A stretch of DNA of 64,000 nt from an uncultured Chloroflexia bacterium (GCA_963726245.1 CAVSBT010000016.1:1-64000); one strand, 5' to 3'. Shown: positions 4,640 through 18,377, numbered from the stretch's first letter. The notes: generated by a model from the sequence alone, not told the origin. A program made the numbers and translations.

Positions 4640-4981
4640 ATGCAGAGCTGTCTCTTCTGCAACATGGCGGCTGGTCGCACGGAGGCGACCAAGCTGCACG
4701 ACGACGACCTGGTCTTCGCAATCCGAGACATCCATCCCCGAGCGCCGGTGCACTTCATGGTGATCGCCAAGGAGCACATACCGGGAGTGCAGGACATTGG
4801 CGAGGAGCATGGCCCGCTGCTGGCGCGGATGGTGACGGTGGCCAATCAGATAGCGAAGACGGAAGGCATCGCCAAGCGCGGCTACCGGTTGACGTTCAAC
4901 TGCGGCGAAGATGGGGGTCAGCTCATCTACCATCTCCACCTGCACGTGCTGGGCGGCCGGCGGCTGGGAGCCGAGGGCTAG
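4640..4981 (+). CDS. Histidine triad (HIT) nucleotide-binding protein
   Basis: CLFC, DIHPRAPVH and HLHLHVLGGR motifs. Confidence 0.93.
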   Translation: MQSCLFCNMAAGRTEATKLHDDDLVFAIRDIHPRAPVHFMVIAKEHIPGVQDIGEEHGPLLARMVTVANQIAKTEGIAKRGYRLTFNCGEDGGQLIYHLHLHVLGGRRLGAEG

Positions 4982-4989
4982 CGGCGTCC

Positions 4990-5610
4990 GTGGGCGGGGC
5001 GGGGCACGAGTCGCTGAGAGCTCAGATCGAGGGGCTGCCCGGCGGGCTGCGCCGCCACATCGAGGCGGTGGTGGCGGAAGCGAGGCGCCTGGCCCGCCTC
5101 CACGGCGTCGACGAGGAGCGGGCGGCGCTGGCGGCCCGGACGCACGACATCGCCCGGGCGATGCCGCCTGACGAGCTCCTGCGCCTGGCCCGAGAGCTGG
5201 GCTTGAACCCCAACGAAGTGGAACAGACAGCGCCTATCCTTCTCCACGGGCCGGTGGCGGCGGCCTTGCTGGCCGGCCGCTACGGCGTCGAGGACGAGGA
5301 GGTGCTGGCCGTGGCCCGCTGGCACAGCACGGGGCGGGCCGGCATGTCGGCCCTCGAGAAGGTTGTGTTCCTGGCCGACAAGGTGGAGCCGGGGAAAGTA
5401 GCGGGACGGCCGGACCTGGAGGAGGTGCGGCGGCTGGCCGAGACCGACCTCGAAGGGGCCGTGCTGCGCTACCTGGACCTGCAACTGCTGGAGGCGGTGC
5501 GGCAGGGCTGGCCCCTGCACCCCGACGCCGTCGCGGCCCGCAACGAGCTGCTCCTCGCCCGGCAGAGGAAGGGGACAGGCAGCGCCGTTCGGATGCCCGC
5601 AGGCACTTGA
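4990..5610 (+). CDS. yqeK: HD-domain Ap4A hydrolase, YqeK-like
   Basis: HDIAR, LLHGPVAA, WHSTG and FLADKVEPG motifs; start GTG 4990 inferred. Confidence 0.82.
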   Translation: MGGAGHESLRAQIEGLPGGLRRHIEAVVAEARRLARLHGVDEERAALAARTHDIARAMPPDELLRLARELGLNPNEVEQTAPILLHGPVAAALLAGRYGVEDEEVLAVARWHSTGRAGMSALEKVVFLADKVEPGKVAGRPDLEEVRRLAETDLEGAVLRYLDLQLLEAVRQGWPLHPDAVAARNELLLARQRKGTGSAVRMPAGT

Positions 5611-5673: not shown

Positions 5674-6909
5674 ATGAATATCGACATCAGCGAACTTGAG
5701 GCCCCCGAATTCCAGAACCCTTTTCGGCCCGGTGCTGGCCACATGCCGCCCTACCTCGCCGGCCGCGAAACGGAGAAACGCGAATTTGCCAAGCATCTCG
5801 ACCAAGAGACAATCTTCGAGAACCTGATTCTTACCGGGCTCCGAGGAGTGGGCAAGACGGTGTTGCTGGAAACGCTGAAGCCGATCGCAATTCAGAAGGG
5901 TTGGCTCTGGGTGGGGACCGACATGTCGGAGTCCACAAGCGTCAGCGAAGCCACCTTAGCGACTCGGTTGCTTACCGATCTCGCCGTTGTGACCTCGAAC
6001 ATCGTGACGGGGGAATCGGAAAGAGTAGGCTTCGGTGCCCGCCCTACCAGTCCCCCACACACGCTCGATTTCCAGGGGCTGTCTGAGATCTGGACGGCCA
6101 CTCCTGGACTGGCCGCCGACAAGCTAAAGGCGGTGCTCGAAAGAGTGTGGCTGTACATCGAGCCTCTGAGGAAGCGGGGCATTATATTCGCGTACGATGA
6201 GGCCCAGAACTTGGCAGATCACGCGGAAAAAGACGAGTATCCTCTCTCGCTGCTTCTGGATGTGTTTCAGTCGATTCAGCGAAGAGGAATTCGCTTCATG
6301 CTCGTCCTTACCGGACTGCCAACGCTGTTCCCCAAGCTCGTAGAGGCAAGGACATTCGCTGAGCGGATGTTCCATATAGTGTTCTTGGACAAGCTGAGCA
6401 GGGAAGACAGTAAGGACGCCATTCTCAAGCCGATAGACGACGCCGCCTGCCCTGTGCAGTTCAAAGGAGGTTCTGTCGACTCGATCTATGCGATCACCCT
6501 GGGCTACCCCTATTTCATCCAGTACGTGTGCCGCGAGGTCTTTGATGTTTGGACCCAGAACCTAGCGGCCGGGGAACAATTCCGAGACATCCCTATGCCC
6601 GAAATCATGCGCAAACTCGATTCAGACTTCTTCGCTGGCCGATGGGCCCGGGCCACTGACAGACAGCGCGACTTGCTGGGTGTCGTTGCGTTGCTCGAGA
6701 ATTGCGCGTCAGAGTTCACGGTCCAAGAGATCGTGGAGAAGTCGGGAGAAGTGCTCGCCAAGCCGTTCAGCCCCAGCCATGTCAATCAGATGCTAGTCTC
6801 GCTATGCAATGCAGGACTCGTGTACAAGAATCGATGGGGCAAGTATTCGTTGGCGGTCCCGCTCCTAGACGGATTCATCCGTCGGCAGTTGGAGACGCTG
6901 CAGCGCTAG
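5674..6909 (+). CDS. Stand-alone AAA+ ATPase (AAA_16/STAND-like) with C-terminal winged helix
   Basis: NPFRPGAG..PPYLAGRE, Walker A GLRGVGKT, Walker B FAYDEAQ, GYPYFIQ; visibly more AT-rich than flanks. Confidence 0.85.
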   Translation: MNIDISELEAPEFQNPFRPGAGHMPPYLAGRETEKREFAKHLDQETIFENLILTGLRGVGKTVLLETLKPIAIQKGWLWVGTDMSESTSVSEATLATRLLTDLAVVTSNIVTGESERVGFGARPTSPPHTLDFQGLSEIWTATPGLAADKLKAVLERVWLYIEPLRKRGIIFAYDEAQNLADHAEKDEYPLSLLLDVFQSIQRRGIRFMLVLTGLPTLFPKLVEARTFAERMFHIVFLDKLSREDSKDAILKPIDDAACPVQFKGGSVDSIYAITLGYPYFIQYVCREVFDVWTQNLAAGEQFRDIPMPEIMRKLDSDFFAGRWARATDRQRDLLGVVALLENCASEFTVQEIVEKSGEVLAKPFSPSHVNQMLVSLCNAGLVYKNRWGKYSLAVPLLDGFIRRQLETLQR

Positions 6910-6992
6910 CTGCCGTTGCCCTCCTCGACCCCGAATCTCAACTTCCACAACCTCATGTGCCTCCCGTCCGGTCTCTCAGTGACAGGGCCCTG

Positions 6993-7021
6993 TTGACGGA
7001 GTAGAACACATATTCTATTCT
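6993..7021 (+). promoter_or_regulatory. Sigma70 promoter with LexA-like box upstream of the phage-like module
   Basis: TTGACG, 17 nt, TATTCT; AGAAC-ACAT-ATTCT (7003-7016) is one mismatch from AGAAC-N4-GTTCT. Confidence 0.65.
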
Positions 7022-7071
7022 TCTTGTCGCCTGGTGGCCTTTCTTCGGCAAGCTCCGGCGCCAAGCGAGAC

Positions 7072-7413
7072 ATGATTAGGCGGGCAACCCTTCCCATGTT
7101 GCACGGACTGGTGGCCGCCCAGGACCTGGTAGCGGCGGCCTGTGGCACGCTGAACGCCCTCTACTTCCTCCACTACTGGCTGCGGCGGCGCCCCAGCCCC
7201 CGGCGGCGGCTGGGGGCCGCCGCCCTGGCGACGGTGAACGCCGCCCTGGTAGTGGAGAGCCTCTTCTTCCTGGCCCTCTACGCATCGTGGCACTGGCAAG
7301 GGGCGGCGGAGCCGTTCCTGTGGCCGCCGGTGTGGCTTCTGGCCCGGCTGCCGCTGCTGCTGGGGGCCGCGTTCATCTCGGCCCTGGTGCTGCGGCAACT
7401 GCGGCGGCAGTAG
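7072..7413 (+). CDS. Small ~3-TM membrane protein (holin-like candidate)
   Basis: Three hydrophobic segments, basic loop and C-terminus; first gene after the promoter. Confidence 0.55.
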   Translation: MIRRATLPMLHGLVAAQDLVAAACGTLNALYFLHYWLRRRPSPRRRLGAAALATVNAALVVESLFFLALYASWHWQGAAEPFLWPPVWLLARLPLLLGAAFISALVLRQLRRQ

Positions 7414-7427
7414 GAGAGGAGAGGTAG

Positions 7428-7586
7428 ATGTCGCCCCTGGCGGTGGCGGTGGAGCGTCGGGCCTGGACCCTGGTAGCCCTCTACCTCCTGCTGGGCGTCG
7501 TCGAGGCGGCGTCGCGGCTGCCGCCGGAGGCGGTGGAAGGGCTGCTGGAGGCCCTGGAAGGGCCGCCCGGCCGTGGCGAAGGCTGA
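7428..7586 (+). CDS. Small hypothetical protein, 52 aa (not in the ORF track)
   Basis: SD GGAGAGG then MSPLAVAVERRAWTLVALYLLLGVVEAASRLPPEAVEGLLEALEG; overlaps the next start. Confidence 0.6.
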   Translation: MSPLAVAVERRAWTLVALYLLLGVVEAASRLPPEAVEGLLEALEGPPGRGEG

Positions 7587-7923
7587 GGGCAGCCGGCGCA
7601 AGAGGGGCCGGCGGCCGACAGCGGCGGGCTTCTACCGGTCGGCCCTGAGCGAGGCGGAGCGGCTGGCCCTCTCCGAGGCAGCGGAGATGCGCGGCCTCGA
7701 CGACGAGATAGCCGTCCTCCGCGTGAAGCTGCGAACGGCGATAGAGGAGAGTCCGCAGGACGTGAAGCTGATGTTCAAGGGGCTGGAGCTACTGGTAAAG
7801 GCGCTGGCTGCCCGCTACCGGCTCTCGCAGCAGGCGGAGGGCGAGCTCTCGGAGAGGGTGGAGGCGGTGCTGCGCGACCTGGGCGCCCCCCTCTACCCGG
7901 AGGTCTTCGGCGATGCAGCGTGA
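7573..7923 (+). CDS. Putative terminase small subunit
   Basis: GFYRSAL..LDDEIAVLRVKL helical pattern; lies upstream of TerL. Confidence 0.55.
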   Translation: MAKAEGSRRKRGRRPTAAGFYRSALSEAERLALSEAAEMRGLDDEIAVLRVKLRTAIEESPQDVKLMFKGLELLVKALAARYRLSQQAEGELSERVEAVLRDLGAPLYPEVFGDAA

Positions 7924-8158
7924 GGCGGAGGCAGAGGCCATCACCACCGAGACAGCGCCCGCCGGGCGGCGGCGCGGCGCCCAGACGGGCCCAAGGGGTC
8001 CGCGGCAGGGGAGCGCCGCCGCTTTCCGCGCCGCCGTGGAGGAGCGCCTGCGCGCCCTGGAGCGGGAGATGGCGGAGGTGAAGGGCCGGATCAACGGCCT
8101 CATCTTCCTCATCGCCGGGACGGTGGCGACGCAGGTCATCCTCCGCCTCATGCAGTAG
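7913..8158 (+). CDS. Small coiled-coil plus C-terminal TM protein
   Basis: VEERLRALEREMAEVKGRIN followed by hydrophobic GLIFLIAGTVATQVIL. Confidence 0.6.
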   Translation: MQREAEAEAITTETAPAGRRRGAQTGPRGPRQGSAAAFRAAVEERLRALEREMAEVKGRINGLIFLIAGTVATQVILRLMQ

Positions 8159-9637
8159 ATGGCCGGTCGCAGGCAGGCGCCCGCCGGGGCCGGGCCCGGG
8201 ATAGGGGTGCGGCTCCGCCCCTACCAGGTGGAGGCCGGACGGGCCGTCCTGGACAGCGTCTTCGGCGGCCGCGGCCTCACCATCTCGGTCATGATGGCCC
8301 GCCAGGGAGGCAAGAACGAGCTCTCGGCCCAGCTAGAGGTCCTGTTGCTGACCGCCCACATCCTCATCGACGCCGACGCCATCAAGTGCGCGCCCACCTT
8401 CGAGCCGCAGGCGCGCCTCAGCATGCGACGCCTGTGGACGCGGCTCCAGGAGGCCGGCCTGGGCCCCTGGTGCCAGCGCGAGGGGCCGGGGGCTATCCGC
8501 CTGGGGCGGGCGCGCCAGGTGTTCCTGTCGGCCGAGCCGGGAAGCAACGTGGTGGGGCACACGGCGCGCATCCTGCTGGAGGTGGACGAGAGCCAGGACG
8601 TGGACCGGGAGAAGTTCGACCGCGACTTCCGGCCGATGGCGGCGGTCGCCAACGCGACCACCGTCCACTACGGCACCGCCTGGGAGGAGACCTCTCTCCT
8701 GGAGCAGGTGAAGCAATCGAACCTGGAGCTGGAGCGCCGGGACGGCCTGCGCCGCCACTTCGAGTACGACTGGCAGGTGGTGGCGCGCCACAACCCGGCC
8801 TACGGCCGCTTCGTGGAGGCGGAGCGCCAGCGCCTGGGCGAAAGCCATCCCCTCTTCCTCACCCAGTACTGTCTGCGCACCCTGGCCGGAGGCGGGCGCC
8901 TGCTCTCGACGCAGCAGCGGGCCCAGCTCCAGGGCGACCACCCGCGCCTGAGCCGCCCGCAATCCGGCGAGACCTACGTCGCCGGGCTGGACCTGGCGGG
9001 CCAGGGCAGCCTCGAAGGCGGCCGAGGCGGAGGGCCTGCCGGGCGAGGGCGTGACCCTTCGGCCCTTCGACAAGCTCAGGGCGCAGCGGGCTCAGGGCGA
9101 GACGCGTCGGTGCTCACCATCGCCCGGCTGATCCTGCCGCCCTCGGACGCCCTGGTGCAGGAGCCGCGCCTGGAGGTGGTGGAGCACTGCGCCTGGGTGG
9201 GCGAGCCCCACGACCGCCTCTACGAGCGCCTGGTCGACCTGCTGCGGGAGGTGTGGCGCGTGCGGCGGGTGGCGGTGGACGCCACGGGCCTGGGGGAGAC
9301 GCTGGCCGCGTGGCTGGCCCGGGCCCTGGGCCGGGACACCGTGGCGCCGGTGCGCTTCAGCGCCGAGAGCAAGTCGCGGCTGGGCTACAACCTGCTGGCG
9401 GCGGTCAACGGCGGCCGCCTCAAGGTCTACGCCGGCGACGGCTCGGCCGAGTACCGGACTCTCTGGCAGGAGATGGAGCGGGCGCGGGTCGCCTACCGGG
9501 CGAACCGGACCATGAACTTCTACGTCGACCCCTCGGAAGGGCATGACGACTACCTGATGAGCCTGGCCTTGACGGTGGAGGCGGCGACGGGCGCCCGGCC
9601 ACGGACGGCTCGGGGCCGCCTGCGGGGGGAGCCGTGA
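8159..9637 (+). CDS. Phage terminase large subunit
   Basis: LRPYQ adenine motif, Walker A ARQGGKNE, Walker B LLEVDESQD, nuclease motifs YVAGLDLAG, VAVDATGLG and HDDYLMSLAL. Confidence 0.85.
   Translation: MAGRRQAPAGAGPGIGVRLRPYQVEAGRAVLDSVFGGRGLTISVMMARQGGKNELSAQLEVLLLTAHILIDADAIKCAPTFEPQARLSMRRLWTRLQEAGLGPWCQREGPGAIRLGRARQVFLSAEPGSNVVGHTARILLEVDESQDVDREKFDRDFRPMAAVANATTVHYGTAWEETSLLEQVKQSNLELERRDGLRRHFEYDWQVVARHNPAYGRFVEAERQRLGESHPLFLTQYCLRTLAGGGRLLSTQQRAQLQGDHPRLSRPQSGETYVAGLDLAGQGSLEGGRGGGPAGRGRDPSALRQAQGAAGSGRDASVLTIARLILPPSDALVQEPRLEVVEHCAWVGEPHDRLYERLVDLLREVWRVRRVAVDATGLGETLAAWLARALGRDTVAPVRFSAESKSRLGYNLLAAVNGGRLKVYAGDGSAEYRTLWQEMERARVAYRANRTMNFYVDPSEGHDDYLMSLALTVEAATGARPRTARGRLRGEP
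9008..9100. repeat. In-frame palindromic repeat (MITE/REP-like) insertion within terL
   Basis: GCCCTTCGACAAGCTCAGGGC nested inside CCCTTCG...GGCTCAGGGCGA; encodes a low-complexity loop. Confidence 0.6.
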
Positions 9638-9638
9638 G

Positions 9639-10029
9639 ATGCAACAGCGCGAAGCCCTGCAACAACGCGAAGCCCTCGGCGAGGGGTGCCTGCTGCTTCC
9701 CGCCCGGCGGGTGCGGGAGGACGCCCTGCCCGAGAACCTGGAATACGCCGACAGCGGCTGCGACCTCTGGGACCGCTGCCTGACCTGCCCTCTGCCGCGC
9801 TGTCGCTACGACGAGCCGGGCGGGGCGCGACAGATCTTCCTGCGGGAGCGGGACCGCGAGATCGCCCGGCTGTATCGGGCGCGACGGGGTGAGCATCGAC
9901 GCGCTGGCGCGCCGGTTCGGCATCTCCCGTCGCAGCGTCTTCCGCAGCCTGAGGAGGGCGACGAGCAGGCGGCGGGCCATCCGGCAGGCGGGGCAGGCAT
10001 CGTGGAGGCGATGGCCGGGCTTCGCGTAG
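9639..10029 (+). CDS. Cys-rich domain plus HTH putative regulator (frameshift ~9880)
   Basis: YADSGCDLWDRCLTCPLPRCRYDEP, then in another frame GVSIDALARRFGISRRSVFRSL (HTH). Confidence 0.65.
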
Positions 10030-10043
10030 CTGGAGGTGACAGC

Positions 10044-11427
10044 ATGAACGGGATGACTCTTCCCCAGCAGCTTCAGCGCATGGACGTGGAGCGCCTGCGG
10101 GCCTACGTCGACAACCTGGCCTTCTACCAGGGCGAGCAGTGGCTGGGCGTGCAGCGCCGGCGGGAGCGCCGCCTGACCTTCAACTACGCCAAGGCGCTGG
10201 TGGAGAAGACCACTTCCTACCTGATAAGCGGGATAACCTTCGCCGTGGACCCCGTCGACCCGTCGCCGGAGGCGGCGGAGCGGGCCCGGGCCGCCGAGCG
10301 GGCGCTCGCTGGAGGTGTACGAGGCCAACCAGCTCGCGCAGCTCGACTTCGACACGGAGCTGGACACGGCCGTCCTGGGCGACGGCGCCTTCAAGGTGAC
10401 CTGGGACGCCGCCGAGCGCCGCGTGCGCGTGTCGGCGCCCGACGTGCAGGGGCTCTTCGTCTGGTGGCTGGGCGACGACGTCTCCCGCCTCTGGCGGGTG
10501 GCCAGTCGCTACTACCTGCTGCCGGAGGAGGTGGAGATGCTGCACGGCGTCCGCCCCCGCACGACCGGTCGCGGCGCCACACGGGTGTCGGCGGGCCTGC
10601 CTGCCGGACAGGCGGGCGGGCGCGCCCGCGGGTCGGAGGTGGTGGAGGTCTGGACGGCCTCGGACTTCGAGCTGTGGGTGGACAGCGTGCTGGTGGAGGC
10701 CAAGGCCAACCCCTACGGCTTCATCCCCTTCGTCATCTACCCCAACCTGCGGGAGCCCAAGCGCTTCTGGGGCGTCTCCGACCTGCCGGCCATCAAGGAG
10801 TCGGTGCGGGAGCTGAACCGGGCCCTGTCGCAGCTATCGATGATCCTGGAGCTGTCGGGGAACCCCATCGCCGTGCTGGAGAACGTGAGCGAGTCGCAGG
10901 ACATCGCCGTGCAGCCGGGGGCGGTGTGGGAGCTGCCGGAGAGGGCGCGGGCCTACCTGCTGGACCTCCTCCAGGGGGGCGGCGTCAAGCTGCACGTGGA
11001 CTTCGTGGACCTCATCTACCGCACGCTGCACGACCTGGGCGAATCGCCGCGGACGGCCTTCGGGGAGAACCGGCAGAGCCTGTCGGGGGTGGCCCTGAAC
11101 GTGGAGCTGGACCCGCTGCTGAAGAAGGTGCAGCGCAAGCGGCTGATCCGCACGGCGGCCTACAAGCGCCGCAACGAGCTGATCCTGCGCCTGCTGGAGC
11201 AGCAGACGGGGGTCTCCTACGCGCCCTACCGGTCGCGCATCGTCTGGGGGGCGGTGCTGCCGCAGGACCGCAGCCGGCTGGTGGCCGACGAGCAGGCGCT
11301 GGTGGCGGCGGGGATCCACAGCCGCCGCCGCGCCGCCGACGAGCTGGGCGTGGAGGACCCGGAGAGCGAGTTCAAGCGCTGGCTGGAGGAGGAGGGGAGC
11401 GCGGGGAGGGAAGGGGCGGGGGCGTGA
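10044..11427 (+). CDS. Phage portal protein (SPP1 gp6-like; frameshift ~10305)
   Basis: LAFYQGEQW..LTFNYAKALVEK, AVLGDGAFKV, NPYGFIPFVIYPN..FWGVSDL and LSGVAL motifs. Confidence 0.82.
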
Positions 11428-11501
11428 GCGGGGGAGGGAGTAGGGAAAGGTACAAGCGGCCCCGGCCTAAGAGCCGAGAGCGCTTATGACACAGCGACCC
11501 G

Positions 11502-12352
11502 CTACACCTCGTACTCGGCTGGCGCCTCTCGGAAGAGACGCATCTGACCGCTGGCTGATCGGGCGGTGATCTTCTCCCAAAAATCCTCGCCCCTCTCGCT
11601 CTTGCTGGCGAACACTAGGTGGTACAGTCCCACGTGACGCGAGTTTGTGATCCGGACATCGTCCACGACCCACGTGTATCCCAGCTTGCGCAACTGCTCT
11701 TCATAGCAGTCCAGCAATATCCGGCTCCGCTCTCGCCGACCGGCCCGAAGTGACCGGTCATACGCGTCCCTCCAGAGCCGCGTCCCGAAGAACGAATCGA
11801 GACTTTTCGGCTCGTAGGCGGCCGCTCTTTTCATACCGCCGACATGAAAGGTGATGACAAGGTCCATGCGGCGGTTGGCGGTCAGCGCTGCGATGGATTC
11901 AAGCGCTATTTGCCAGTTGGACGGGTCAACAAAGGCGAGGTCGAGAGACCGGCCCGGCAACACTGACCGAATGCGAGGGATCACCGCGTTGCAGTCTCCT
12001 GAGAAGTACGTTGCGGTTGGGCCGCCGATCCGCATCCGCCCGTTTCTTGAGTGCCTCAACCGCTTCTGGCTCCAAATCGTTGAAGAAGCATCGGGTGAAA
12101 GGAACGTGGGACCTCAGAGCCGCGACAGCAGAGCCCTCTATCTCATGACTTCCCGCAAAGAGCCGCCCCGCACCGCAGAACAGGTCAATATATGATTCGC
12201 TCGGACCACTTCTTCTGCATCCCCGCGTTGAAGATGTAGAAGTAGCGCGCAAGATAGAACAGCTTGTCCTTCGCCCATGCTCCGGTACGCCAGGCAATCA
12301 GGTCGTCTGAGGCCAGTGCCCACTCCCGACTCTTCTCTGCGCTCTCGCTCAT
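11502..12352 (-). CDS. tcmP: Three-Cys-motif partner protein TcmP (methyltransferase-like); two frameshifts
   Basis: Reconstructed GAWAKDKLFYLARY, YIDLFCGAG, EGSAVAAL, GDCN, LAFVDP and LYHLVFASKSERG..FW. Confidence 0.72.
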
Positions 12353-13272
12353 CTACTCCGCTCGCTTCTGGCCATTCAGTGCGGCGGTGTAGCAGCACCC
12401 GTCGTGCTCGCAGCCCCAGCCGCCGGTACAGCGCGACCGTCTCCTTGCAGGGGTGTACCGGCACTTCGGGGTCGTGGCGGCGTACGGCCTCAATGGCAGC
12501 CTCATACAAGGCGGCGCGCGTCTCCAGGGGGATGCGCTTGCGCCCGTCCTCCGGTGACCTCTCACCGCCAAAGGCGTAGATGGACGTGTCCCTCCCCACG
12601 CGTCGGGCCCAGCCGGGCAGCCCCGGGTAGTAGCGGAGGCTGCCCAGCGTCCACTGGTTTGGCCGGAACAGGTCATAGACGGCATCGATAAGCGACGGGT
12701 ACTCCTCCTGCCAGCCGTCGAGCGGGCATCATAGGGTCCAAACGCAGCGTGACGTAGTAGCCAGCGTCCTTGACCCGCGCGGCGGCCTCCGCGCGGCGCA
12801 GAGGATGCGGCGTCCCCAGCTCGTAGCGCTGCCAGACGGAAGGCGCGTTGACAGAGAAGGCGACGATGACCTGGCCCTGGGGGTCCCACTTCAAGAGGTT
12901 GCGCACGTTGGTCGACTTGGTCACCAGCAAGAGCTTGTGCCGGTTCTGGGCAGCAAACCGCGGCACCAAGTCGTCGACCAGAGGGATCTGCCCGTCCAGA
13001 GCCAGCGAGTCCTCTAGCTCCCCAGCGTTCAACCTCAACTGGCCGGGCTGCGCGAGCCATTCGTCGAGTTCCGCAAGCAGCTTCTCACGGTTGGTGTAGA
13101 CAACGGGGTCTATCCTGCCCCGGAAGGTGCCCTGAAGATAGCAGTAGGTGCACTTGTACGGGCATCCTATGTAGTAGCTGAGCGCATGAAAGGGCCCGCA
13201 GACAATGCCGGGTTTGGCCGTATTGTTGAGGTGGATGAACGCGGACCTGCGCTCCCTGACCTGGTATCCCAA
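12353..13272 (-). CDS. Spore photoproduct lyase-like radical SAM protein; frameshifts near 12720 and 12590
   Basis: GCPYKCTYCYLQ (CxxxCxxC), GELEDSLALD, VTKSTNV, FSVN, YELGTP..RR, LRLDP and CKET motifs. Confidence 0.75.
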
Positions 13273-13381
13273 CGCGCCGCTCCTCTTGTGTCGGCGGAAC
13301 TATACCAGCTAATGCTCCGCGCGTGAAGCCAGAGTCTCCGGCACCCCTGGTCTCAGCCCGCCGCCCGGTGACACATCCCCA

Positions 13382-13411
13382 TTGACCAGTATAGAACATA
13401 TCTTCTATTCT
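13382..13411 (+). promoter_or_regulatory. Second sigma70 promoter with LexA-like box (structural-gene operon)
   Basis: TTGACC, 18 nt, TATTCT; AGAAC-ATAT-CTTCT (13393-13406); same layout as 6993-7021. Confidence 0.65.
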
Positions 13412-13453
13412 CCCCTCCGTCAAGCCCTTCATCCAGGTGAAAGAGAGGAGTCC

Positions 13454-13873
13454 ATGAGCGAGGAGGACCTTTCGGAGTTGCAGGATCGGCTGACCGAGGC
13501 GCAGGCCGAGGTGGAACGCCTCCAGACCATGGCCGCCGACCGCGAGGCACGCGCCGCCCAGGATGTCTACGTCTACTACGGCAAGCTCCACACCCTCGAC
13601 GCCAGTACCTCGACCGTCCCGGCGGCGCTGGAGGACGTGGTGGCCACGGGGTCGGCCGCCTACGCAGCGTTGGAATGGGCCACCTTCGCCACCAACCGCG
13701 TCAACGTCGGCGGTTCCGACGTGTGGCGGCAGTACCTGGTGTGGGGCCAGGAGCGCCTGGCCGCCTTTGCCCGCGAGCTGGCGCGCCGCGGACGGCGGGC
13801 CGGGGTGCGCGTGCGCCGCCTCTACCGGCCCGCCGCCCCTGCCGACCTGCGCTCGACGCCTTGGGAGCCCTAG
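13454..13873 (+). CDS. Probable chimera: scaffold-like coiled-coil N-terminus fused to head-tail adaptor-like C-terminus
   Basis: Abrupt switch near 13560 from acidic coiled-coil (LSELQDRLTEAQAEVERLQ) to YYGKLHTLDASTSTVP..NRVNVGG. Confidence 0.55.
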   Translation: MSEEDLSELQDRLTEAQAEVERLQTMAADREARAAQDVYVYYGKLHTLDASTSTVPAALEDVVATGSAAYAALEWATFATNRVNVGGSDVWRQYLVWGQERLAAFARELARRGRRAGVRVRRLYRPAAPADLRSTPWEP

Positions 13874-13876
13874 CCC

Positions 13877-15853
13877 GTGCGCGCCCTTCCCAGCGACCTC
13901 CTGGCGGCGCAGAGAAGCGCCTCGGCCGTGCCCTACGTGCTGGTGCGCGTGAGTGAGCGCGTCGCCCACGCGGTCCGGCTGCGCTGGGAGCGGCTCTACA
14001 CCGGGAGCGAGCCCGAATCCTACCACGCCGCCACCGTCCCGTCGGACGGCTCGCTGCTGCGGGCCCGGAGCACGGGAGGCCAGCTCTACTATCAGCGCGT
14101 GGCCAACCCCGGGCCGGGCAGCAACTTCTCATCTTGGACGTCAGTGGCTTCGGTGTCGGCGACGGGGGGTCTGGCTCTAACGAGCCGGGGGAGCAGCGTC
14201 CTCCTCTTCTCCGTCCACACCAACAACGTGACCATCCACGTGCGCGAGAGCGCCGACAGCGGAGCGACCTTCGGCTCGCCGGTGACGGTGGCGACGGCCT
14301 CGGGAGCGGTAGTCTGGATGGCGGCCGGCCTTAAGAGCGACGGTACCGCCCTCCTGGTCTACTCGGTGGGGGCGACCGTCTACAGGGTGAAGCGGGTGAG
14401 CGGAGTGTGGGGCTCGCCGGCGGCCTGGAGCCACAGCCTGGCCTCGGTGAGCGGCCTGGCCTGCAATTATTACTTCGACTTCGACATCGCGGTGGCCGGC
14501 AGCCAGTCGGGTGGCGCGACCGGCATATGGACCGTCATCTACGGCGACGGCTACAACCAGACGCTCGATACCTGGTCGCCCCTCATGGAGCTGACCCTGG
14601 CCAGCGCTGGCTCCAGCGTGGAATTCCGGGCGCCCGCTCTCGCCGTCGTGGGGCGCTACCGGCTCTTCTTCGACGAGAAGTACACGGGGAGCCAGGCCTA
14701 CAGCCGCGCCTACTGGACCCATCTGGCCCCGTTGCAGGAGTTCCTGACCAACACCTGGCGTGAGCCTGTCGTCATGGATATCGGTGGCGATTTCGGCGTG
14801 GCGTCTGCGGCCGGGTCGGCCTACGGCTGGCTCTCGACCCCGTCCGGGGTCTGGCGAGCGAGCCTCAGCGCCCCGTCCCTTGACCTCAGCGAGGACATCC
14901 TGGAAGTCTATGTTGAGACGCGGCCCCAGGAAGGACGCCTGAAGGTTGTCCTCCGCAACGACGACGGCCGCTACAACGATCTTACGGGCGGCGCCTGCGC
15001 GGCCATCCGCTGCGGCTCGGAGGCGGAGTTCAGCCCCGGCTACCTGACCGCGTCCGGGCCGCTGGTCTCGCCCGGGGCCCGATACTGGATAGAGGGCTGG
15101 GACTACGTCAACGACCGCGGGCGGGCTCGCTTCGTCATCCACGCCAGCGACTCCTGGGCGCTGCTCGCCAACTGGCGGGCGCGGCGACAGTTCGCCTGGG
15201 AGGCCGGCGAACGCACGGTGTGCGAGCTGCTGGAGTTCGTCCTGGGACGCGCCGCCTTGGGGTTCAGCACTGTCAGCCCCAGCGACGCAGTCACCAGCCT
15301 GTCGCCCGCCTTCACTATCCAACCCGCCGAGAGCGGCAAGGCCGCCGTGGGCCGCCTGCTGGCCATGGTGCCGGACGTGCTGTTCGTCTCGGGCGAGTAC
15401 GGCTACCTCGTGAATCCTACCGCCGCTCAGGCCACAGACTATGAGTACGGGACCGAGCACGCGATCCTCGGAGGGCGCTACGGCTGCCGGTCTGCGTCCT
15501 TCAACCGCGTGCAGGTCTTCGGCCAGAGCCTGATGGTGGAGGACTTCGACTGGACCGGCGTGGGCGACATCTACGACCGGCTGCACCAGGACCACGACCG
15601 CAACCTCACCTCGGTAGCGGCCGCCCAGGACCGCGCCGACGCCTTCCTGCGCCACCAGGAGATGGAGGCTGCCGACGACGAGCTGCTAGTACCCGCCAAC
15701 TGCGGCCAGGAGCTGTACGACGTGGTGGAGGTGACCGACCCGATGGCCGGGCTCTCCGCGGCCCGCCGGCGCGTGCTGGCGATAAGCCTCCGTTACACAA
15801 GGGATAGCCCCACGCCCGCCTACGAGATGCGGCTTCGCTTGGGAGCTGTCTGA
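13877..15853 (+). CDS. Large virion-like protein: N-terminal beta-propeller-like region, C-terminal baseplate hub-like region
   Basis: Ser/Gly/Trp-rich beta pattern with Asp-box-like RESADSGATFG; LKVVLRNDDGRY and PANCGQELYDVVEVTD hub-like segments. Confidence 0.55.
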   Translation: MRALPSDLLAAQRSASAVPYVLVRVSERVAHAVRLRWERLYTGSEPESYHAATVPSDGSLLRARSTGGQLYYQRVANPGPGSNFSSWTSVASVSATGGLALTSRGSSVLLFSVHTNNVTIHVRESADSGATFGSPVTVATASGAVVWMAAGLKSDGTALLVYSVGATVYRVKRVSGVWGSPAAWSHSLASVSGLACNYYFDFDIAVAGSQSGGATGIWTVIYGDGYNQTLDTWSPLMELTLASAGSSVEFRAPALAVVGRYRLFFDEKYTGSQAYSRAYWTHLAPLQEFLTNTWREPVVMDIGGDFGVASAAGSAYGWLSTPSGVWRASLSAPSLDLSEDILEVYVETRPQEGRLKVVLRNDDGRYNDLTGGACAAIRCGSEAEFSPGYLTASGPLVSPGARYWIEGWDYVNDRGRARFVIHASDSWALLANWRARRQFAWEAGERTVCELLEFVLGRAALGFSTVSPSDAVTSLSPAFTIQPAESGKAAVGRLLAMVPDVLFVSGEYGYLVNPTAAQATDYEYGTEHAILGGRYGCRSASFNRVQVFGQSLMVEDFDWTGVGDIYDRLHQDHDRNLTSVAAAQDRADAFLRHQEMEAADDELLVPANCGQELYDVVEVTDPMAGLSAARRRVLAISLRYTRDSPTPAYEMRLRLGAV

Positions 15854-15863
15854 GGGGCTGAAG

Positions 15864-16076
15864 ATGAACCTGCGCCAGGGGACACTGAAGTCGTTCGATT
15901 CCGGCTCCTACACAGCGACGGTGCAGGTGGCGGGAAGCCTGGCCGTCTGGCTGGCCGGCGTTCCCGTGAACCGCGGCATCCCTCAGGGGGAGATGGTTAC
16001 CGGCCGCCGCTGCGCCCTCCTCTTCTTCGACGATGCCAACCCCGGCGACGCCGTGCTTGTCGCCATCTACACGTAG
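15864..16076 (+). CDS. Small beta protein, OB-fold spike/baseplate-like
   Basis: 70 aa, GTLKSFDSGSYTATVQV..VPV..GRRCALLF pattern like gpV/gp5 N-terminal OB folds. Confidence 0.5.
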   Translation: MNLRQGTLKSFDSGSYTATVQVAGSLAVWLAGVPVNRGIPQGEMVTGRRCALLFFDDANPGDAVLVAIYT

Positions 16077-16318: not shown

Positions 16319-16606
16319 ATGACGGAGCAGCGGGAACGTTCCCACGTTGGGCACCGGGTGGTCGGGACCATAAAGGCGGTGAAAGGCAACTGCTCCTGGG
16401 GCCACAAGGTGGGCGACACCGTCGAGGTGAGCGCCCACGACACCGCTGGCCTCTGCGGCTTCCTCTACCACGAGATCTTCCCCTACGTCGTCATGCTCCA
16501 GTTCGGGGGCGGCTTCCCCGCAGCGTGGGGAGGTCCCGACAGCGTAGAGCTGGAGTGCATGGACCGCTGGAACGCCGTCAAGATAGAGCTCCGAAGGGAG
16601 GACTGA
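16319..16606 (+). CDS. TIGR04076-like small Cys protein
   Basis: [22 protein letters not shown] and ECMD motifs. Confidence 0.7.
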
Positions 16607-16649: not shown

Positions 16650-17687
16650 ATGCCCGAACGCATCCTCTCCGGTAAGCCTCGCGAGGAAGACATAGCCCTC
16701 GATACGTCCCTGCGGCCCCGGCGGCTCGCCGACTACGTGGGCCAGGAGAAGATCAAGGACAACCTGCGCATCGCCATCGCCGCCGCCCAGCAGCGCGGCG
16801 AGCCCCTCGACCACGTCCTCCTCTACGGGCCGCCCGGCCTGGGCAAGACCACCCTCGCCTACATCATCGCCGCCGAGATGGGCGTGAGCATCCGCATCAC
16901 CTCGGGGCCGGCCATCGAGCGGCCGGGGGACCTCGCTGCCATCCTCACCAACCTCCAGCAGGACGACATCCTCTTCATCGACGAGATCCACCGCCTGGCG
17001 CGGTCGGTGGAGGAGATCCTCTACCCGGCCATGGAGGACTTCGGCCTGGACCTGGTGCTGGGCAAGGGCCCCGGCGCCCGCAGCGTGCGCCTGTCCCTCC
17101 CCCGCTTCACCCTCATCGGGGCCACGACGCGCTACGCCATGATGAGCCCGCCGCTGCGCGACCGCTTCGGCGCCGTCTATCGCCTGGACTTCTACGACCG
17201 GGAGGCGATAGCGGCCATCATCCGCCGCAGCGCCCGCATACTGGCGGTGGAGATCGAGGAGGGCGGCACGCAGGAGGTCGCGCGCCGGGCCCGCGGCACG
17301 CCCCGCGTCGCCAACCGGCTCCTGAGGCGCGTCCGCGACTACGCCCAGGTGATGGCCGACGGCGTCATCACGGAGCCCGTCGCGCGGGAGGCGCTCGCCC
17401 GCCTGGAGATCGACGACCTGGGGCTGGACGAGGTGGACCACAAGGTGCTGCGCTCCATCATCGAGAAGTTCGACGGCGGGCCCGTGGGGCTGGACACCAT
17501 CGCCGCCTCCATCTCGGAGGAGTCCGACACCATCATGGACGTCTACGAGCCCTACCTGATGCAGGTGGGCTTCATCCAGCGCACGCCCCGCGGCCGGGTG
17601 GCCACGCGCCTCGCCTACGAGCACCTGGGCCTGCCGCCCAAGGGGCCGGCGCCCTCGGCCCAGCCGCAGTTGTGGGACACGCCCTGA
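16650..17687 (+). CDS. ruvB: Holliday junction branch migration helicase RuvB
   Basis: [29 protein letters not shown] and [13 protein letters not shown] motifs. Confidence 0.97.
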
Positions 17688-18251: not shown

Positions 18252-18377
18252 GGGCGCAGCATGCTGCGCCCAACCTGCCGGCCGACCAGCGCGCTAAGCC
18301 CTGCCCCCAACCGTAGGGGTGCCCCTCGCGGGCGCCCGCAACGCGCCGTCGCGGGCAGGGGCGAGCCCTGCCCCTAC
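18248..18377. repeat. REP cluster downstream of the RAYT
   Basis: GTAGGGGCGCAGCATGCTGCGCCC and GTAGGGG...CCCCTAC doublet. Confidence 0.8.

What the first reader, a model, noticed from the sequence alone, without database searches (positions are those of the whole stretch)
6990..16076. Candidate domesticated phage head-packaging system (gene transfer agent-like) in a Chloroflexota chromosome
Seen: a co-oriented, tightly packed run of small membrane genes, TerS-like, TerL with intact ATPase and nuclease motifs, a Cys-HTH regulator, an SPP1-type portal, a scaffold/adaptor-like ORF, a propeller/hub-like protein and an OB-spike-like protein. Composition matches the host, with housekeeping genes (hit/yqeK, ruvB) on either side. 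No integrase, att repeat, replication, repressor, tape-measure, tube/sheath or endolysin gene is recognisable. Established: known GTAs (RcGTA, BaGTA, VSH-1) are host-regulated packaging modules lacking these functions. Inference: a vertically inherited DNA-packaging particle system of Dehalococcoidia. I recall similar hypothetical-protein clusters in Dehalococcoidia genomes, but this is unverified here.
Basis: partly seen in the sequence, partly recalled or inferred. Interest (0 to 1): 0.9.

Follow-up and report, generated by a model that had tools for sequence, protein, structure and literature searches.

The report
Decayed copy of ancient Dehalococcoidia capsid genes
This stretch is a broken copy of a phage-derived set of capsid, DNA-packaging and short-tail genes that most Dehalococcoidia bacteria have inherited from parent to offspring and kept in working order, much like the "gene transfer agents" known from other bacteria.

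Summary
The portal and the Cys-HTH gene each carry a +1 frameshift relative to the same-genus genome. The "scaffold/adaptor-like ORF" is an in-frame fusion left by a ~3.5 kb deletion. That deletion removed the scaffold C-terminus, the major capsid gene, accessory genes and the adaptor N-terminus. No capsid gene was found anywhere in this 83%-complete genome.

Relatives hold the full set: TM, TerS-like, TM, TerL, Cys4-HTH and portal, then scaffold, epsilon15/SU10-type capsid protein, SU10-type adaptor, a propeller-plus-gp27-like hub and a 70-aa OB protein.
- **Distribution:** TerL was found in 203 of 301 and the capsid gene in 171 of 301 sampled genomes of the class; 161 have both. The capsid gene is nearly always single copy.
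- **Inheritance:** the TerL tree follows the four host families tested. TerL and portal distances track RuvB (r 0.84 and 0.80).
- **Selection:** dN/dS is 0.07-0.35 for most gene pairs, though some short regulatory and scaffold comparisons run higher.
- **Not a prophage:** no integrase, att repeat or tRNA lies nearby. In many complete genomes the two modules sit 45 kb to 2 Mb apart yet stay intact.

The best reading is an anciently domesticated, GTA-like particle system. Random DNA packaging and transfer are untested. I found no published report of it.

The parts
4900..5610 (+). yqeK (bis(5'-nucleosyl)-tetraphosphatase), conserved host flank upstream of the packaging module
   Evidence: TIGR00488 1.9e-34, 119 bits against a cut-off of 70. 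The same flank appears in 10 of 41 TerL loci examined and in G129.
5674..6909 (+). AAA/STAND-like ATPase, a low-GC insertion that is not part of the element
   Evidence: AAA_16 2.9e-8 and phrog_6841 2.3e-58. GC is 0.57. It is absent between yqeK and the TM gene in G001.
7024..7413 (+). Small membrane protein, first conserved gene of the packaging module
   Evidence: Hydrophobic segments at about residues 63-87 and 102-123. Homologues sit in the same position across the order, at 34-94% identity.
7573..7923 (+). TerS-like protein (assignment by position, size and basic N-terminus only)
   Evidence: Always lies just upstream of TerL across the class (alignment A3). The AF2 model is all-helical with pLDDT 79. 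No PDB fold match at E <= 0.001. Atlas leads to small terminase clusters score only 0.79.
7913..8158 (+). Small protein with a C-terminal TM helix, between the TerS-like gene and TerL
   Evidence: Hydrophobic segment at about residues 59-80. Conserved position. phrog_9511 0.0037.
8159..9637 (+). Large terminase (TerL), intact
   Evidence: tblastn 1e-37 to annotated phage terminases. phrog_5909 2.5e-5; Terminase_6C 21.9 bits, just under the 22.6 cut-off. Walker A-like, Walker B and nuclease Asp motifs are invariant in 21 genomes. Homologues in 203 of 301 class genomes.
9639..10029 (+). Cys4 + HTH regulator gene, broken by a +1 insertion at about 9877
   Evidence: The frame changes at about 9877 relative to G001. 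The intact 101-aa homologue in G011 hits HTH_23 at 1e-5. The gene is conserved between TerL and portal across the class.
10011..11427 (+). SPP1-type portal gene, broken by a +1 insertion at about 10307 (start at 10011 or 10044)
   Evidence: PF05133 6.3e-13 and phrog_64 6.2e-23 on the 3' frame. The N-terminal 89 aa lie in another frame. Relatives have a single frame. The insertion was located.
11502..12297 (-). TcmP-like gene (three-Cys-motif partner), frameshifted; cargo in the variable spot
   Evidence: The G004 homologue hits TIGR04474 at 8.9e-41. The window copy is in two frames.
12411..13287 (-). Spore-photoproduct-lyase-like radical SAM gene, frameshifted at about 12725; cargo in the variable spot
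   Evidence: The G004 homologue hits TIGR04070 at 6.3e-23, below the cut-off. The window copy is in two frames.
13382..13873 (+). Fusion ORF: scaffold N-terminus joined in frame to adaptor C-terminus; deletion junction at 13553-13560
   Evidence: Residues 1-58 match scaffold genes and residues 49-163 match the C-terminus of the 211-aa SU10-type adaptor. DNA alignment to G007 shows about 3.5 kb missing and about 8 nt shared at the junction.
13877..15853 (+). 658-aa tail protein: N-terminal beta-propeller plus C-terminal gp27 / Mu gp44 / VgrG-type hub; intact
   Evidence: AF2 pLDDT 96.0, pTM 0.92. Foldseek PDB hits to CIS, Mu, T4 and T6SS hubs at 1.6e-16 to 5e-10, and to a propeller lectin at 8e-9. 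BFVD hits named 'tail protein / protein D / gpP'. The family has 1064 cluster representatives.
15864..16076 (+). 70-aa protein after the hub, possibly a gpV-like OB spike or plug
   Evidence: Conserved directly after the hub gene across the class, at 40-89% identity. Atlas lead: a baseplate protein V cluster at score 0.93. No Pfam or PHROG hit.
16319..16606 (+). TIGR04076-family host gene (flank)
   Evidence: TIGR04076 1.2e-10. It sits next to ruvB in G004, G221 and G064 as well.
16650..17687 (+). ruvB, conserved host flank downstream of the structural module
   Evidence: NF000868 9.7e-155. The same flank appears in G004, G221, G064 and G129.

Best explanation
The window holds a decaying copy of an old, chromosomally fixed, phage-derived gene set that is widespread in the class Dehalococcoidia.

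**The intact set has two modules.**
- Packaging module: membrane protein, TerS-like protein, small membrane protein, TerL, Cys4-HTH regulator and SPP1-type portal.
- Structural module: scaffold, epsilon15/SU10-type HK97-fold capsid protein, SU10-type adaptor, a propeller-plus-gp27-like hub and a small OB protein.

**Shown here.** The set is inherited vertically with the host. It is kept under purifying selection in most lineages. It is single copy. It lacks integration, replication and lysogeny genes. It is often split into two distant chromosomal loci.

**Inferred mechanism.**
- On some host signal, perhaps acting through the Cys4-HTH protein, scaffold, capsid protein and portal build a protease-independent procapsid.
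- TerS-like protein and TerL fill it with double-stranded DNA by the headful.
- Adaptor, hub and OB protein close the portal and form a minimal tail. The propeller domain would bind recipient cells.
- The small membrane proteins release the particles.
- The genes cannot excise or replicate as a unit and are often unlinked, so the packaged DNA is most likely host DNA. That makes it a gene-transfer-agent-like viriform.

**In this genome.** The system is probably dead. The capsid gene and its neighbours are deleted, and the portal and the regulator are frameshifted.

**My odds.**
- Vertically inherited domesticated particle genes: about 0.85.
- Particles carry host DNA between cells (a true GTA): about 0.45.
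- The window's copy is non-functional: about 0.8.
For: **Gene identities**
- TerL and portal.
- Capsid protein: NF045672 MCP_gp7_epsi_15, 206 bits against a cut-off of 75; phrog_212 1.9e-72; Pfam Phage_capsid and SU10_MCP.
- Adaptor: PF24175 SU10_adaptor, 33.2 bits against a cut-off of 27.
- Hub fold.

**Distribution**
- TerL in 39 of 41 order-level genomes, covering 23 of 23 genera.
- TerL in 203 of 301 class-level genomes and the capsid gene in 171 of 301. Both are present in 161, TerL only in 42, capsid only in 10, neither in 88.
- At least 514 species genomes hold a close capsid relative; the best 80 are 74-87% identical.
- The capsid alignment across the class has 79% mean column identity.

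**Vertical descent**
- TerL identity falls from 95% (genus) to 69-89% (family) to 54-70% (order). RuvB falls in parallel: 94%, 86-92%, 73-88%.
- In the TerL tree of 21 genomes, each of the 4 host families is one side of a branch. That needs 3 label changes, the minimum; 0 of 200 shuffles did as well.
- Pairwise distances of TerL and portal against RuvB give r = 0.84 and 0.80. The Mantel test gave 0 of 2000 permutations as high.
- dS of the element's genes is similar to dS of the flanking host genes.

**Selection**
- dN/dS: TerL 0.15-0.23, portal 0.11-0.25, capsid 0.10-0.25, adaptor 0.07-0.35, hub 0.17-0.35. For comparison, yqeK is 0.20-0.34 and ruvB 0.02-0.14.

**Not a prophage**
- No tyrosine integrase on the window's contig or on G004's contig. 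The nearest lies more than 100 kb away in G011, G221 and G054.
- No tRNA and no att-like repeat.
- Host genes lie on both sides.
- The nearest catalogued phages are only 45% (capsid) and 30% (TerL) identical.

**Split modules**
- TerL and capsid genes lie 45-116 kb apart in the 15 genomes of genus g29 where both are on one contig. They lie 172-189 kb apart in G066 and G124, 427 kb in G267, and 0.57 Mb or more in G101 and G129.
- The fetched halves are free of internal stops.
- In G129 the packaging half still sits by yqeK and the structural half by ruvB.

**Decay in the window:**
Against: - No particle, packaged DNA, expression or transfer was observed. No RNA run holding the stretch was available.
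- The capsid type (epsilon15/SU10-like) usually builds heads large enough for about 40 kb. That statement is recalled, not tested. If it holds, a contiguous 10-14 kb locus could fit in one head, unlike classical GTAs.
- Loss and decay are common.
  - The capsid gene was not found in 8 of 41 order-level genomes.
  - It is interrupted or stopped in G002, G021, G026 and G029.
  - The set is absent from whole families (f26 0 of 17, f28 0 of 7).
  - Any benefit is therefore dispensable.
- Some genomes carry 2-5 TerS-like/TerL pairs, which hints at ongoing duplication or mobility of that pair.
- dN/dS is not uniformly low. Scaffold gave 0.26-1.01 (the 1.01 rests on 31 codons, and 0.74 on 162 codons). 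Cys-HTH gave up to 0.44-0.60, and TerS-like and the small TM protein up to 0.50.
- Related but more distant clusters occur patchily in other Chloroflexota classes: 21 genomes in a phylum sample of 401. Some horizontal spread in the deep past is therefore not excluded.
- The tree and Mantel tests use related genomes, which are not independent, and only one host marker (RuvB).
- The TerS assignment has no fold or family support.
- The window's frameshifts and deletion could not be confirmed in reads from its source sample.
Confidence: 0.6

Rival explanations
1. A domesticated particle system with a function other than gene exchange. Examples: a PBSX-like killer particle; a device for releasing DNA or vesicle-like material; an in-situ 'lateral transduction' platform that preferentially moves the DNA next to its pac site; or a capsid supplier for other mobile elements.
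For: - All the conservation evidence fits equally well.
- The hub carries a lectin-like propeller that could serve for binding or killing.
- A variable cargo spot sits between portal and scaffold. It holds TcmP plus radical SAM in G000, G004, G002 and G010, and cupin plus a glycosyltransferase-like gene in G011.
- Extra TerS-like/TerL pairs occur without portal or capsid genes in genus g43.
Against: - Retention of TerL with invariant ATPase and nuclease motifs, together with the portal, argues that DNA packaging is central. That is not needed for a pure killer particle.
- Nothing in the sequence discriminates among these uses.
Confidence: 0.25
2. An ordinary defective prophage remnant with no function. 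The apparent conservation reflects slow decay or repeated infection by one phage lineage that integrates next to yqeK.
For: - The window's own copy is clearly decaying.
- Decay and loss are frequent in relatives.
- IMG/VR pipelines call at least 474 such contigs viral.
Against: - Across class-level divergence the capsid protein stays 74-87% identical.
- dN/dS of 0.1-0.25 for the capsid gene and 0.07-0.35 for the other structural and packaging genes is not neutral decay.
- The gene tree follows the host families, and distances track RuvB.
- The modules are split yet intact.
- No integrase lies nearby.
- The IMG/VR contigs kept (the best 80) are 4-27 kb, and the four examined carry the same gene set.
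Confidence: 0.07
3. An active temperate phage or satellite family of Dehalococcoidia. Its replication and integration genes are too divergent to recognise or lie elsewhere.
For: - Many genes in the loci have no family assignment.
- Multi-copy TerS-like/TerL pairs occur in some genomes.
- Related clusters occur in other classes, one of them with an amidase.
Against: - The capsid gene is single copy in nearly all carriers.
- The set has conserved host flanks.
- In many complete genomes its two halves are tens of kb to Mb apart, so it cannot be packaged as one genome.
- No close relative exists among 50,697 catalogued phage records.
Confidence: 0.05

Closest known systems
RcGTA-type gene transfer agents of Alphaproteobacteria (Rhodogtaviriformidae)
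   Same: - Phage-derived head, packaging and tail genes fixed in the chromosome.
- No integrase or replication genes.
- Vertical inheritance over a deep clade, with purifying selection and frequent secondary loss.
- Genes can lie at more than one locus.

The GTA side of this comparison is recalled. A paper on GTA-host co-evolution (PMC10883770) and one on viriforms (PMC9953437) were seen only as search listings and abstract openings.
   Different: - Different phylum.
- The capsid protein is of the epsilon15 gp7 / SU10 type with a separate scaffold and no recognisable protease. RcGTA has an HK97-type head with a protease and a long non-contractile tail with tube and tape measure (recalled).
- Here no tube, sheath or tape-measure gene was recognised. 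The tail is only adaptor, hub and OB protein.
- A Cys4-HTH gene sits inside the cluster.
- Direct sequence comparison with RcGTA proteins was not done.
Podoviruses epsilon15 and SU10 (structural modules)
   Same: The capsid protein matches NF045672 MCP_gp7_epsi_15 (7e-61) and Pfam SU10_MCP. The adaptor matches Pfam SU10_adaptor. A scaffold gene lies directly upstream of the capsid gene.
   Different: - Those are complete lytic or temperate phage genomes.
- Here there is no replication, lysis-enzyme, nozzle, needle or fibre gene that I could recognise.
- The distal tail protein has a gp27/Mu gp44-type hub fold, typical of long-tailed phages and contractile injection systems, and no nozzle protein appeared among the 50 best fold matches listed.
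- The best catalogued phage capsid match is 45% identical, in Pseudomonas siphophages.
PBSX / defective-prophage particles of Bacillus subtilis
   Same: A chromosomal, non-propagating, phage-like particle locus that packages DNA (recalled).
   Different: PBSX is restricted to close relatives and has a full contractile tail (recalled). The present set is conserved across a bacterial class and has a minimal tail.
Cryptic prophage remnant
   Same: The window's own copy carries frameshifts, a 3.5 kb internal deletion and foreign insertions.
   Different: Across relatives the family is not decaying neutrally.

Membership tests
Gene transfer agent (criteria recalled from the GTA literature) | Phage-like structural and packaging genes in the host chromosome, without integration, replication or lysogeny genes | tested here: met
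   Gene content. No integrase within 100 kb in G011, G221 and G054, and none on the contigs of G000 and G004. No tRNA or att repeat. Only tyrosine integrases were searched. Unrecognised genes cannot be excluded.
Gene transfer agent (criteria recalled from the GTA literature) | Vertical inheritance with the host and purifying selection | tested here: met
   The TerL tree keeps 4 of 4 host families monophyletic. The Mantel test gave 0 of 2000 permutations as high, with r = 0.84 and 0.80 against RuvB. dN/dS is 0.07-0.35 for TerL, portal, capsid, adaptor, hub and OB protein, and higher (up to 0.6-1.0) in some scaffold and Cys-HTH comparisons. Only 21 genomes of one order and one host marker were used.
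Gene transfer agent (criteria recalled from the GTA literature) | Particles carry random pieces of producer DNA, too small to encode the whole system | not testable with these tools
   No virome or particle data. Split modules make self-packaging impossible in many genomes, but head capacity is unknown.
Gene transfer agent (criteria recalled from the GTA literature) | Production under host regulation, release, and delivery of DNA to recipient cells | not testable with these tools
   A conserved Cys4-HTH gene and small membrane proteins are candidates only.
Gene transfer agent (criteria recalled from the GTA literature) | Homology to a known GTA lineage (RcGTA, BaGTA, VSH-1, Dd1, VTA) | not tested
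   No known GTA protein was compared. Family names found here (epsilon15/SU10 capsid, SU10 adaptor) differ from what I recall for RcGTA.
Large terminase (TerL) | ATPase with Walker A/B motifs plus an RNase H-like nuclease; similarity to phage terminases | tested here: met
   tblastn 1e-37 and 1e-30 to annotated terminases. phrog_5909 2.5e-5. Motifs invariant in 21 genomes (motif names recalled). Pfam Terminase_6C scores 21.9 bits, just under the 22.6 cut-off.
SPP1-type portal (PF05133) | Match over the family cut-off and an intact reading frame | tested here: inconclusive
   Family match met: 48.9 bits against 25.5. The window's gene is frameshifted at about 10307. It is intact in relatives.
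epsilon15 gp7-type major capsid protein (NF045672) | Match over the family cut-off | tested here: not met
   Not met in the window or anywhere in G000: no capsid gene found. Met in relatives: 206.3 bits against 75 for G004.
SU10-type adaptor (PF24175) | Match over the family cut-off | tested here: inconclusive
   G004 full-length protein: 33.2 bits against 27. The window keeps only the C-terminal half, fused to the scaffold N-terminus. No Pfam hit for the fusion ORF.
gp27 / Mu gp44 / VgrG-type tail hub | Hub fold | tested here: met
   Model pLDDT 96. Foldseek probability 1.00, E 1.6e-16 to 5e-10, to CIS, Mu, T4 and T6SS hubs over about 340 columns. BFVD hits named 'protein D / gpP / 43 kDa tail protein'. 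Sequence identity is 8-14%. Placing the hub in the C-terminal half is inferred.
Small terminase (TerS) | Recognisable TerS family or fold | tested here: inconclusive
   No Pfam or PHROG hit. Helical model with pLDDT 79 and no fold match at E <= 0.001. Atlas leads score 0.79. Position next to TerL is the only support.
Complete (inducible) prophage | Integrase, att sites, replication or repressor genes, lysis enzyme, one contiguous genome | tested here: not met
   Host flanks. Modules are separated by 45 kb to 2 Mb in many genomes.

The most novel reading that the evidence does not exclude
Dehalococcoidia carry an ancient, independently domesticated gene transfer agent. It would be the first in Chloroflexota. 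It is built from an epsilon15/SU10-like head and a three-protein tail (adaptor, propeller-hub, OB protein). It is present in hundreds of species and remains functional even where its two modules lie megabases apart. Because TerS-like protein and TerL act in situ next to a variable cargo spot, it may work as a built-in lateral-transduction engine that preferentially exports the neighbouring chromosome.
Probability: 0.4. Interest if true: 0.9.

Novelty: new variant of a known kind. Interest (0 to 1): 0.8.

Why it matters
Gene transfer agents are known from only a handful of lineages, and each arose from a separate phage domestication. A class-wide, vertically inherited capsid, packaging and mini-tail gene set in Dehalococcoidia would add a new one.
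- Dehalococcoidia are abundant in sediments, aquifers, soils and the deep ocean, and most have never been cultured.
- It would offer a mechanism for gene exchange in organisms where none is characterised.
- It would explain why virus-detection pipelines flag hundreds of short Dehalococcoidia contigs as viral. At least 474 IMG/VR contigs do so. This matters for virome and host-prediction studies.
- The minimal tail and protease-free head would make it a compact model for particle assembly.
- The many natural knock-outs, such as this window, give a ready comparative test of what the system is good for.

Tried and rejected
- **TerS identity.** I predicted and searched the structure of the 116-aa protein and made an atlas look-up. 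No fold or family support came back, so the name rests on position alone.
- **Programmed frameshift in the portal.** Rejected. Relatives encode the portal in one frame. Near-identical metagenome contigs lack the extra base.
- **General assembly noise as the cause of the frameshifts.** Judged unlikely but not excluded. TerL (492 aa), the hub (658 aa), RuvB and the ATPase are intact. All four broken genes lie between 9.87 and 12.73 kb.
- **Read-level check.**
  - No run held more than 0.28 of the sampled words, so the source sample was probably not among the runs.
  - The four runs laid are Logan contigs of relatives.
  - They show the base-less (intact) form at 9880 and at 10307/10309.
  - Their contigs run on past 13553/13560 into undeleted sequence.
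  - No listed contig bridges the deletion junction.
  - This neither confirms nor refutes the window's lesions.
  - No RNA holder was listed.
- **Complex prediction** for hub plus OB protein was not run. A pass would not change the main odds.
- **Literature.**
  - Seven full-text searches found no report of a GTA or domesticated capsid locus in Dehalococcoidia or Chloroflexota.
  - One preprint on Dehalococcoides viruses (10.64898/2026.09.15.751708) was read as outline, abstract and passages. It concerns a different, non-tailed element.
  - Subscription journals and supplementary files were not visible and could hold such a report.
- **Rows dropped and shortcuts.**
  - Tree and distance tests used 21 of the 41 order-level genomes: those for which I had fetched both a TerL locus and RuvB.
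  - dN/dS used only the best tblastn segment per gene and skipped pairs with fewer than 30 codons.
  - Distances between TerL and capsid genes were worked out by hand from the coordinates listed, only where both lie on one contig.
- **Unpublished genome.** G273 is one of the 301 genomes in the tallies. No other claim rests on it.

Full report
**What is in the window**

The window is the first 64 kb of contig C16 of a 2.68 Mb, 46-contig genome with 67% GC that is 83% complete.

Between yqeK (4900-5610; TIGR00488 1.9e-34) and ruvB (16650-17687; 9.7e-155), the + strand carries these genes:
- a small membrane protein (7024-7413);
- a 116-aa helical protein just upstream of the terminase (7573-7923);
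- a small protein with a C-terminal TM helix (7913-8158);
- TerL (8159-9637);
- a Cys-rich HTH gene (from 9639);
- an SPP1-type portal (to 11427; PF05133 6e-13, phrog_64 6e-23);
- a 163-aa ORF (13382-13873);
- a 658-aa protein (13877-15853);
- a 70-aa ORF (15864-16076).

A low-GC ATPase gene (5674-6909) lies between yqeK and the cluster. It is missing at that place in the same-genus genome G001.

**This copy is damaged**

- **Frameshifts in the element.** A three-frame translation shows that the portal N-terminus and the rest of the portal lie in different frames. The same is true of the two halves of the Cys-HTH gene. Alignment with G001, which is 97% identical there, pins this on single extra bases at about 9877 and 10307. 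In G001 and all other relatives both genes are in one frame.
- **Foreign genes, also broken.** Between the portal and the next + strand ORF lie two minus-strand genes, each itself split over two frames. One is TcmP-like (the G004 homologue hits TIGR04474 at 8.9e-41). The other is a spore-photoproduct-lyase-like radical SAM gene.
- **A fusion ORF.** The 163-aa ORF is a fusion. Its first ~58 residues match scaffold genes of relatives. Its residues 49-163 match the C-terminal half of a 211-aa SU10-type adaptor.
- **The deletion.** DNA alignment with G007 places the junction at 13553-13560, with about 8 shared bases and about 3.5 kb missing. The missing piece holds the rest of the scaffold gene, the major capsid gene, accessory genes and the adaptor N-terminus.
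- **No capsid gene.** None was found anywhere in this genome. A second copy in the unassembled 17% cannot be excluded.
- **Is it assembly noise?** TerL, the hub protein, RuvB and the ATPase are intact, so the lesions are clustered. That argues against general assembly noise.
- **Read check.** I could not confirm the lesions in reads. No public run held more than 0.28 of the stretch's words. The four runs laid contain relatives only. Those relatives show the intact form at both frameshift sites and run on into undeleted sequence at the junction.

**The intact gene set in relatives**

In G004 and the complete genome G011 the order is:
1. yqeK
2. TM protein
3. TerS-like protein
4. small TM protein
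5. TerL
6. Cys4-HTH (101 aa; HTH_23 1e-5)
7. portal (448-473 aa)
8. a variable spot
9. scaffold (178-186 aa, coiled coil)
10. a 295-aa capsid protein
11. accessory genes of 132, 126-168 and 293 aa, present in only some lineages
12. a 211-aa adaptor
13. a 660-aa protein
14. a 70-82 aa protein
15. in some genomes, a holin-like TM protein (phrog_20258 8e-9)
16. host genes: the TIGR04076-family gene and ruvB, or dnaN

Family assignments:
- **Capsid protein:** NF045672 MCP_gp7_epsi_15 (7e-61, 206 bits against a cut-off of 75), phrog_212 (1.9e-72), and Pfam Phage_capsid and SU10_MCP.
- **Adaptor:** Pfam SU10_adaptor, 33 bits against a cut-off of 27.
- **658-aa protein:**
  - It folds with pLDDT 96 and pTM 0.92, from a 78-sequence alignment.
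  - About 340 residues match the gp27 / Mu gp44 / VgrG hub of long-tailed phages, contractile injection systems and type VI secretion (E 1.6e-16 to 5e-10). BFVD hits are named tail protein, protein D or gpP.
  - The rest is a beta-propeller that also resembles a propeller lectin (8e-9).
  - Placing the hub in the C-terminal half is my inference. It rests on the secondary structure and on the weak PHROG hit at residues 404-621.
- **70-aa protein:** the only lead is a baseplate protein V cluster at score 0.93.
- **TerS-like protein:** no family or fold support.
- **Not recognised:** protease, tube, sheath, tape-measure, endolysin, integrase and replication genes.

**Distribution**

- **Order sample:** TerL homologues occur in 39 of 41 genomes, covering 23 of 23 genera. 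The capsid gene occurs in 33 of 41.
- **Class sample:** of 301 genomes, TerL occurs in 203 (E <= 1e-10) and the capsid gene in 171. Both are present in 161, TerL only in 42, capsid only in 10 and neither in 88. These tallies include one unpublished genome, G273.
- **Copy number:** the capsid gene is nearly always single copy and open.
- **Named records:** The best 80 are 74-87% identical and are titled Dehalococcoidia or Chloroflexota MAGs, including Tepidiformaceae and Candidatus Amarobacter glycogenicus.
- **Conservation:** the capsid alignment across the class has 79% mean column identity.
- **Outside the class:** 21 genomes in a phylum sample of 401 hold a more distant relative. The five I fetched show 50-57% capsid identity and other gene orders. 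One compact cluster there has host genes on both sides and includes an amidase.
- **Whole families without it:** f26 has 0 of 17 and f28 has 0 of 7.

**Vertical descent and selection**

- TerL identity to the window falls with taxonomic distance: 95% in the genus, 69-89% in the family and 54-70% in the order. RuvB falls in parallel: 94%, 86-92% and 73-88%.
- For 21 genomes with both genes in hand, the TerL tree puts each of the four host families on one side of a branch. That needs 3 label changes, the minimum possible; 0 of 200 shuffles did as well.
- Pairwise protein distances of TerL and portal correlate with those of RuvB (r = 0.84 and 0.80). No Mantel permutation out of 2000 reached those values. 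Related genomes are not independent, and only one host marker was used.
- Nei-Gojobori dN/dS between close pairs:

| Gene | dN/dS |
|---|---|
| TerL | 0.15-0.23 |
| Portal | 0.11-0.25 |
| Capsid | 0.10-0.25 |
| Adaptor | 0.07-0.35 |
| Hub | 0.17-0.35 |
| yqeK (host) | 0.20-0.34 |
| ruvB (host) | 0.02-0.14 |

- Some smaller genes are less constrained. Scaffold gave 0.26-0.74 over 111-172 codons and 1.01 over 31 codons. Cys-HTH gave 0.06-0.60. TerS-like gave 0.14-0.50. The small TM protein gave 0.03-0.50.
- dS of the element's genes is in the range of the flanking host genes.
- The TerL ATPase and nuclease motifs are invariant in the 21 genomes.

**Not a prophage**

- There is no tRNA in the first 30 kb and no flanking exact repeat.
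- There is no tyrosine integrase on the window's contig or on G004's contig. None lies within about 100 kb of the locus in G011, G221 or G054.
- The nearest catalogued phages are far away. The best capsid match is 45% identical, and 289 records all fall under 60%. The best TerL match is 30% identical, among only 5 matching records.
- IMG/VR holds at least 474 contigs with this capsid gene. The 80 kept are 4-27 kb, and the four I examined carry the same gene set and nothing more phage-like.
- Most telling, the two modules are often unlinked.
  - TerL and capsid genes lie 45-116 kb apart in the 15 genomes of genus g29 where both sit on one contig. All 16 sampled g29 genomes carry both genes.
  - They lie 172-189 kb apart in G066 and G124, and 427 kb apart in G267.
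  - They lie 0.57 Mb or more apart in G101, and 0.72 Mb or more in G129 (coordinates; contig lengths).
  - The fetched halves have no internal stops. They still show dN/dS of 0.07-0.17 within g29.
  - In G129 the packaging half still sits beside yqeK and the structural half beside ruvB. That is what one expects if an ancestral yqeK-element-ruvB arrangement was split by a rearrangement at the variable spot.

**How it most likely works**

What is shown is a conserved, host-inherited gene set that encodes a head, a DNA-packaging motor and a three-protein tail. The following steps are inferred.
- Scaffold, capsid protein and portal form a procapsid without a protease.
- TerS-like protein and TerL package DNA by the headful.
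- Adaptor, hub and OB protein seal the portal.
- The propeller domain binds target cells.
- The small membrane proteins release the particles.
- The Cys4-HTH protein switches the genes on.

The genes cannot excise or replicate and are often unlinked. The cargo is therefore most likely host DNA, as in gene transfer agents. Other uses fit the sequence equally well: a killer particle, a lateral-transduction platform, or a capsid donor for other elements.

**Evidence against, and limits**

- No particle, cargo, expression or transfer data exist here.
- Loss and decay are frequent.
  - The capsid gene was not found in 8 of 41 order-level genomes.
  - It is stopped in G002 and interrupted by kb-scale insertions in G021, G026 and G029.
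  - One small complete genome (G094) keeps TerS-like and TerL with only remnants of portal and hub.
- Some genomes carry 2-5 TerS-like/TerL pairs without portal or capsid genes.
- Head capacity is unknown.

**Novelty**

Seven full-text searches found no report of such a system in Dehalococcoidia or Chloroflexota. One preprint on Dehalococcoides viruses describes an unrelated, non-tailed element (outline, abstract and passages read). Subscription journals and supplementary files were not visible.

I rate the finding as a new variant of a known kind: an independent GTA-like domestication with a different architecture.

**Verdict**

The evolutionary predictions hold at class scale. The function is untested. 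This window's copy is a wreck of the system, not a working example.

Noticed in passing
window 5674-6909: A low-GC (0.57) AAA/STAND-like ATPase gene (phrog_6841 2.3e-58) is inserted between yqeK and the element. It is absent at that place in the same-genus genome G001.
   Followed up: partly
window 11502-13287 (-); also L016:10757-12620, L017, L030, L169: A TcmP-like gene and a spore-photoproduct-lyase-like radical SAM gene sit as a pair on the opposite strand between portal and scaffold in several genomes. That spot holds different cargo in others (cupin and a glycosyltransferase-like gene in G011). It looks like an insertion hot spot. Both genes are frameshifted in the window.
   Followed up: partly
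L040, L041, L042, L044 (genomes G138, G059): Genomes of one genus carry 2-5 full-length TerS-like/TerL pairs, 52-57% identical to the window's TerL. Only one pair lies next to portal and capsid genes. What the extra pairs belong to is unknown.
   Followed up: no
G026:C6:82675-88494; G029:C1:2256723-2266254; G021:C4:160387-171555: The capsid gene is split into two or three pieces separated by 2.5-10 kb of other DNA in three genomes. These may be insertions of mobile DNA or introns. They were not examined.
   Followed up: no
L258 (G537:C38:55000-74999): In another Chloroflexota class there is a compact cluster: TerL, portal, SU10-type adaptor, scaffold, capsid (55% identical), a 193-aa ORF, an Amidase_2 enzyme and a 916-aa ORF. 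Host genes lie on both sides (PAS histidine kinase, KaiC-like, YkuD). It may be a second domesticated relative that kept a wall-lysis enzyme.
   Followed up: partly
L034 (G094:C1:360821-380820): A small complete genome (1.5 Mb) keeps TerS-like and TerL intact. It has only a truncated portal (one stop) and the C-terminal two thirds of the hub gene, on the other strand, and no capsid gene anywhere.
   Followed up: partly
window 17769-18271: An exact 24-nt palindromic repeat occurs at 17931 and 18248. It lies beside an ORF that resembles a REP-associated tyrosine transposase (my recollection of the motif, not tested). G004 has a similar ORF after ruvB.
   Followed up: no
window 9640-9675: An 18-nt tandem duplication at the very start of the Cys-HTH gene gives MQQREALQQREAL. 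It is also present in G001.
   Followed up: no
L014, L020, L032: In G014 and G021 the portal match stops at about residue 240-250 of 473. No capsid gene was found in G014, and in G021 it is broken. These look like further independent decays.
   Followed up: no
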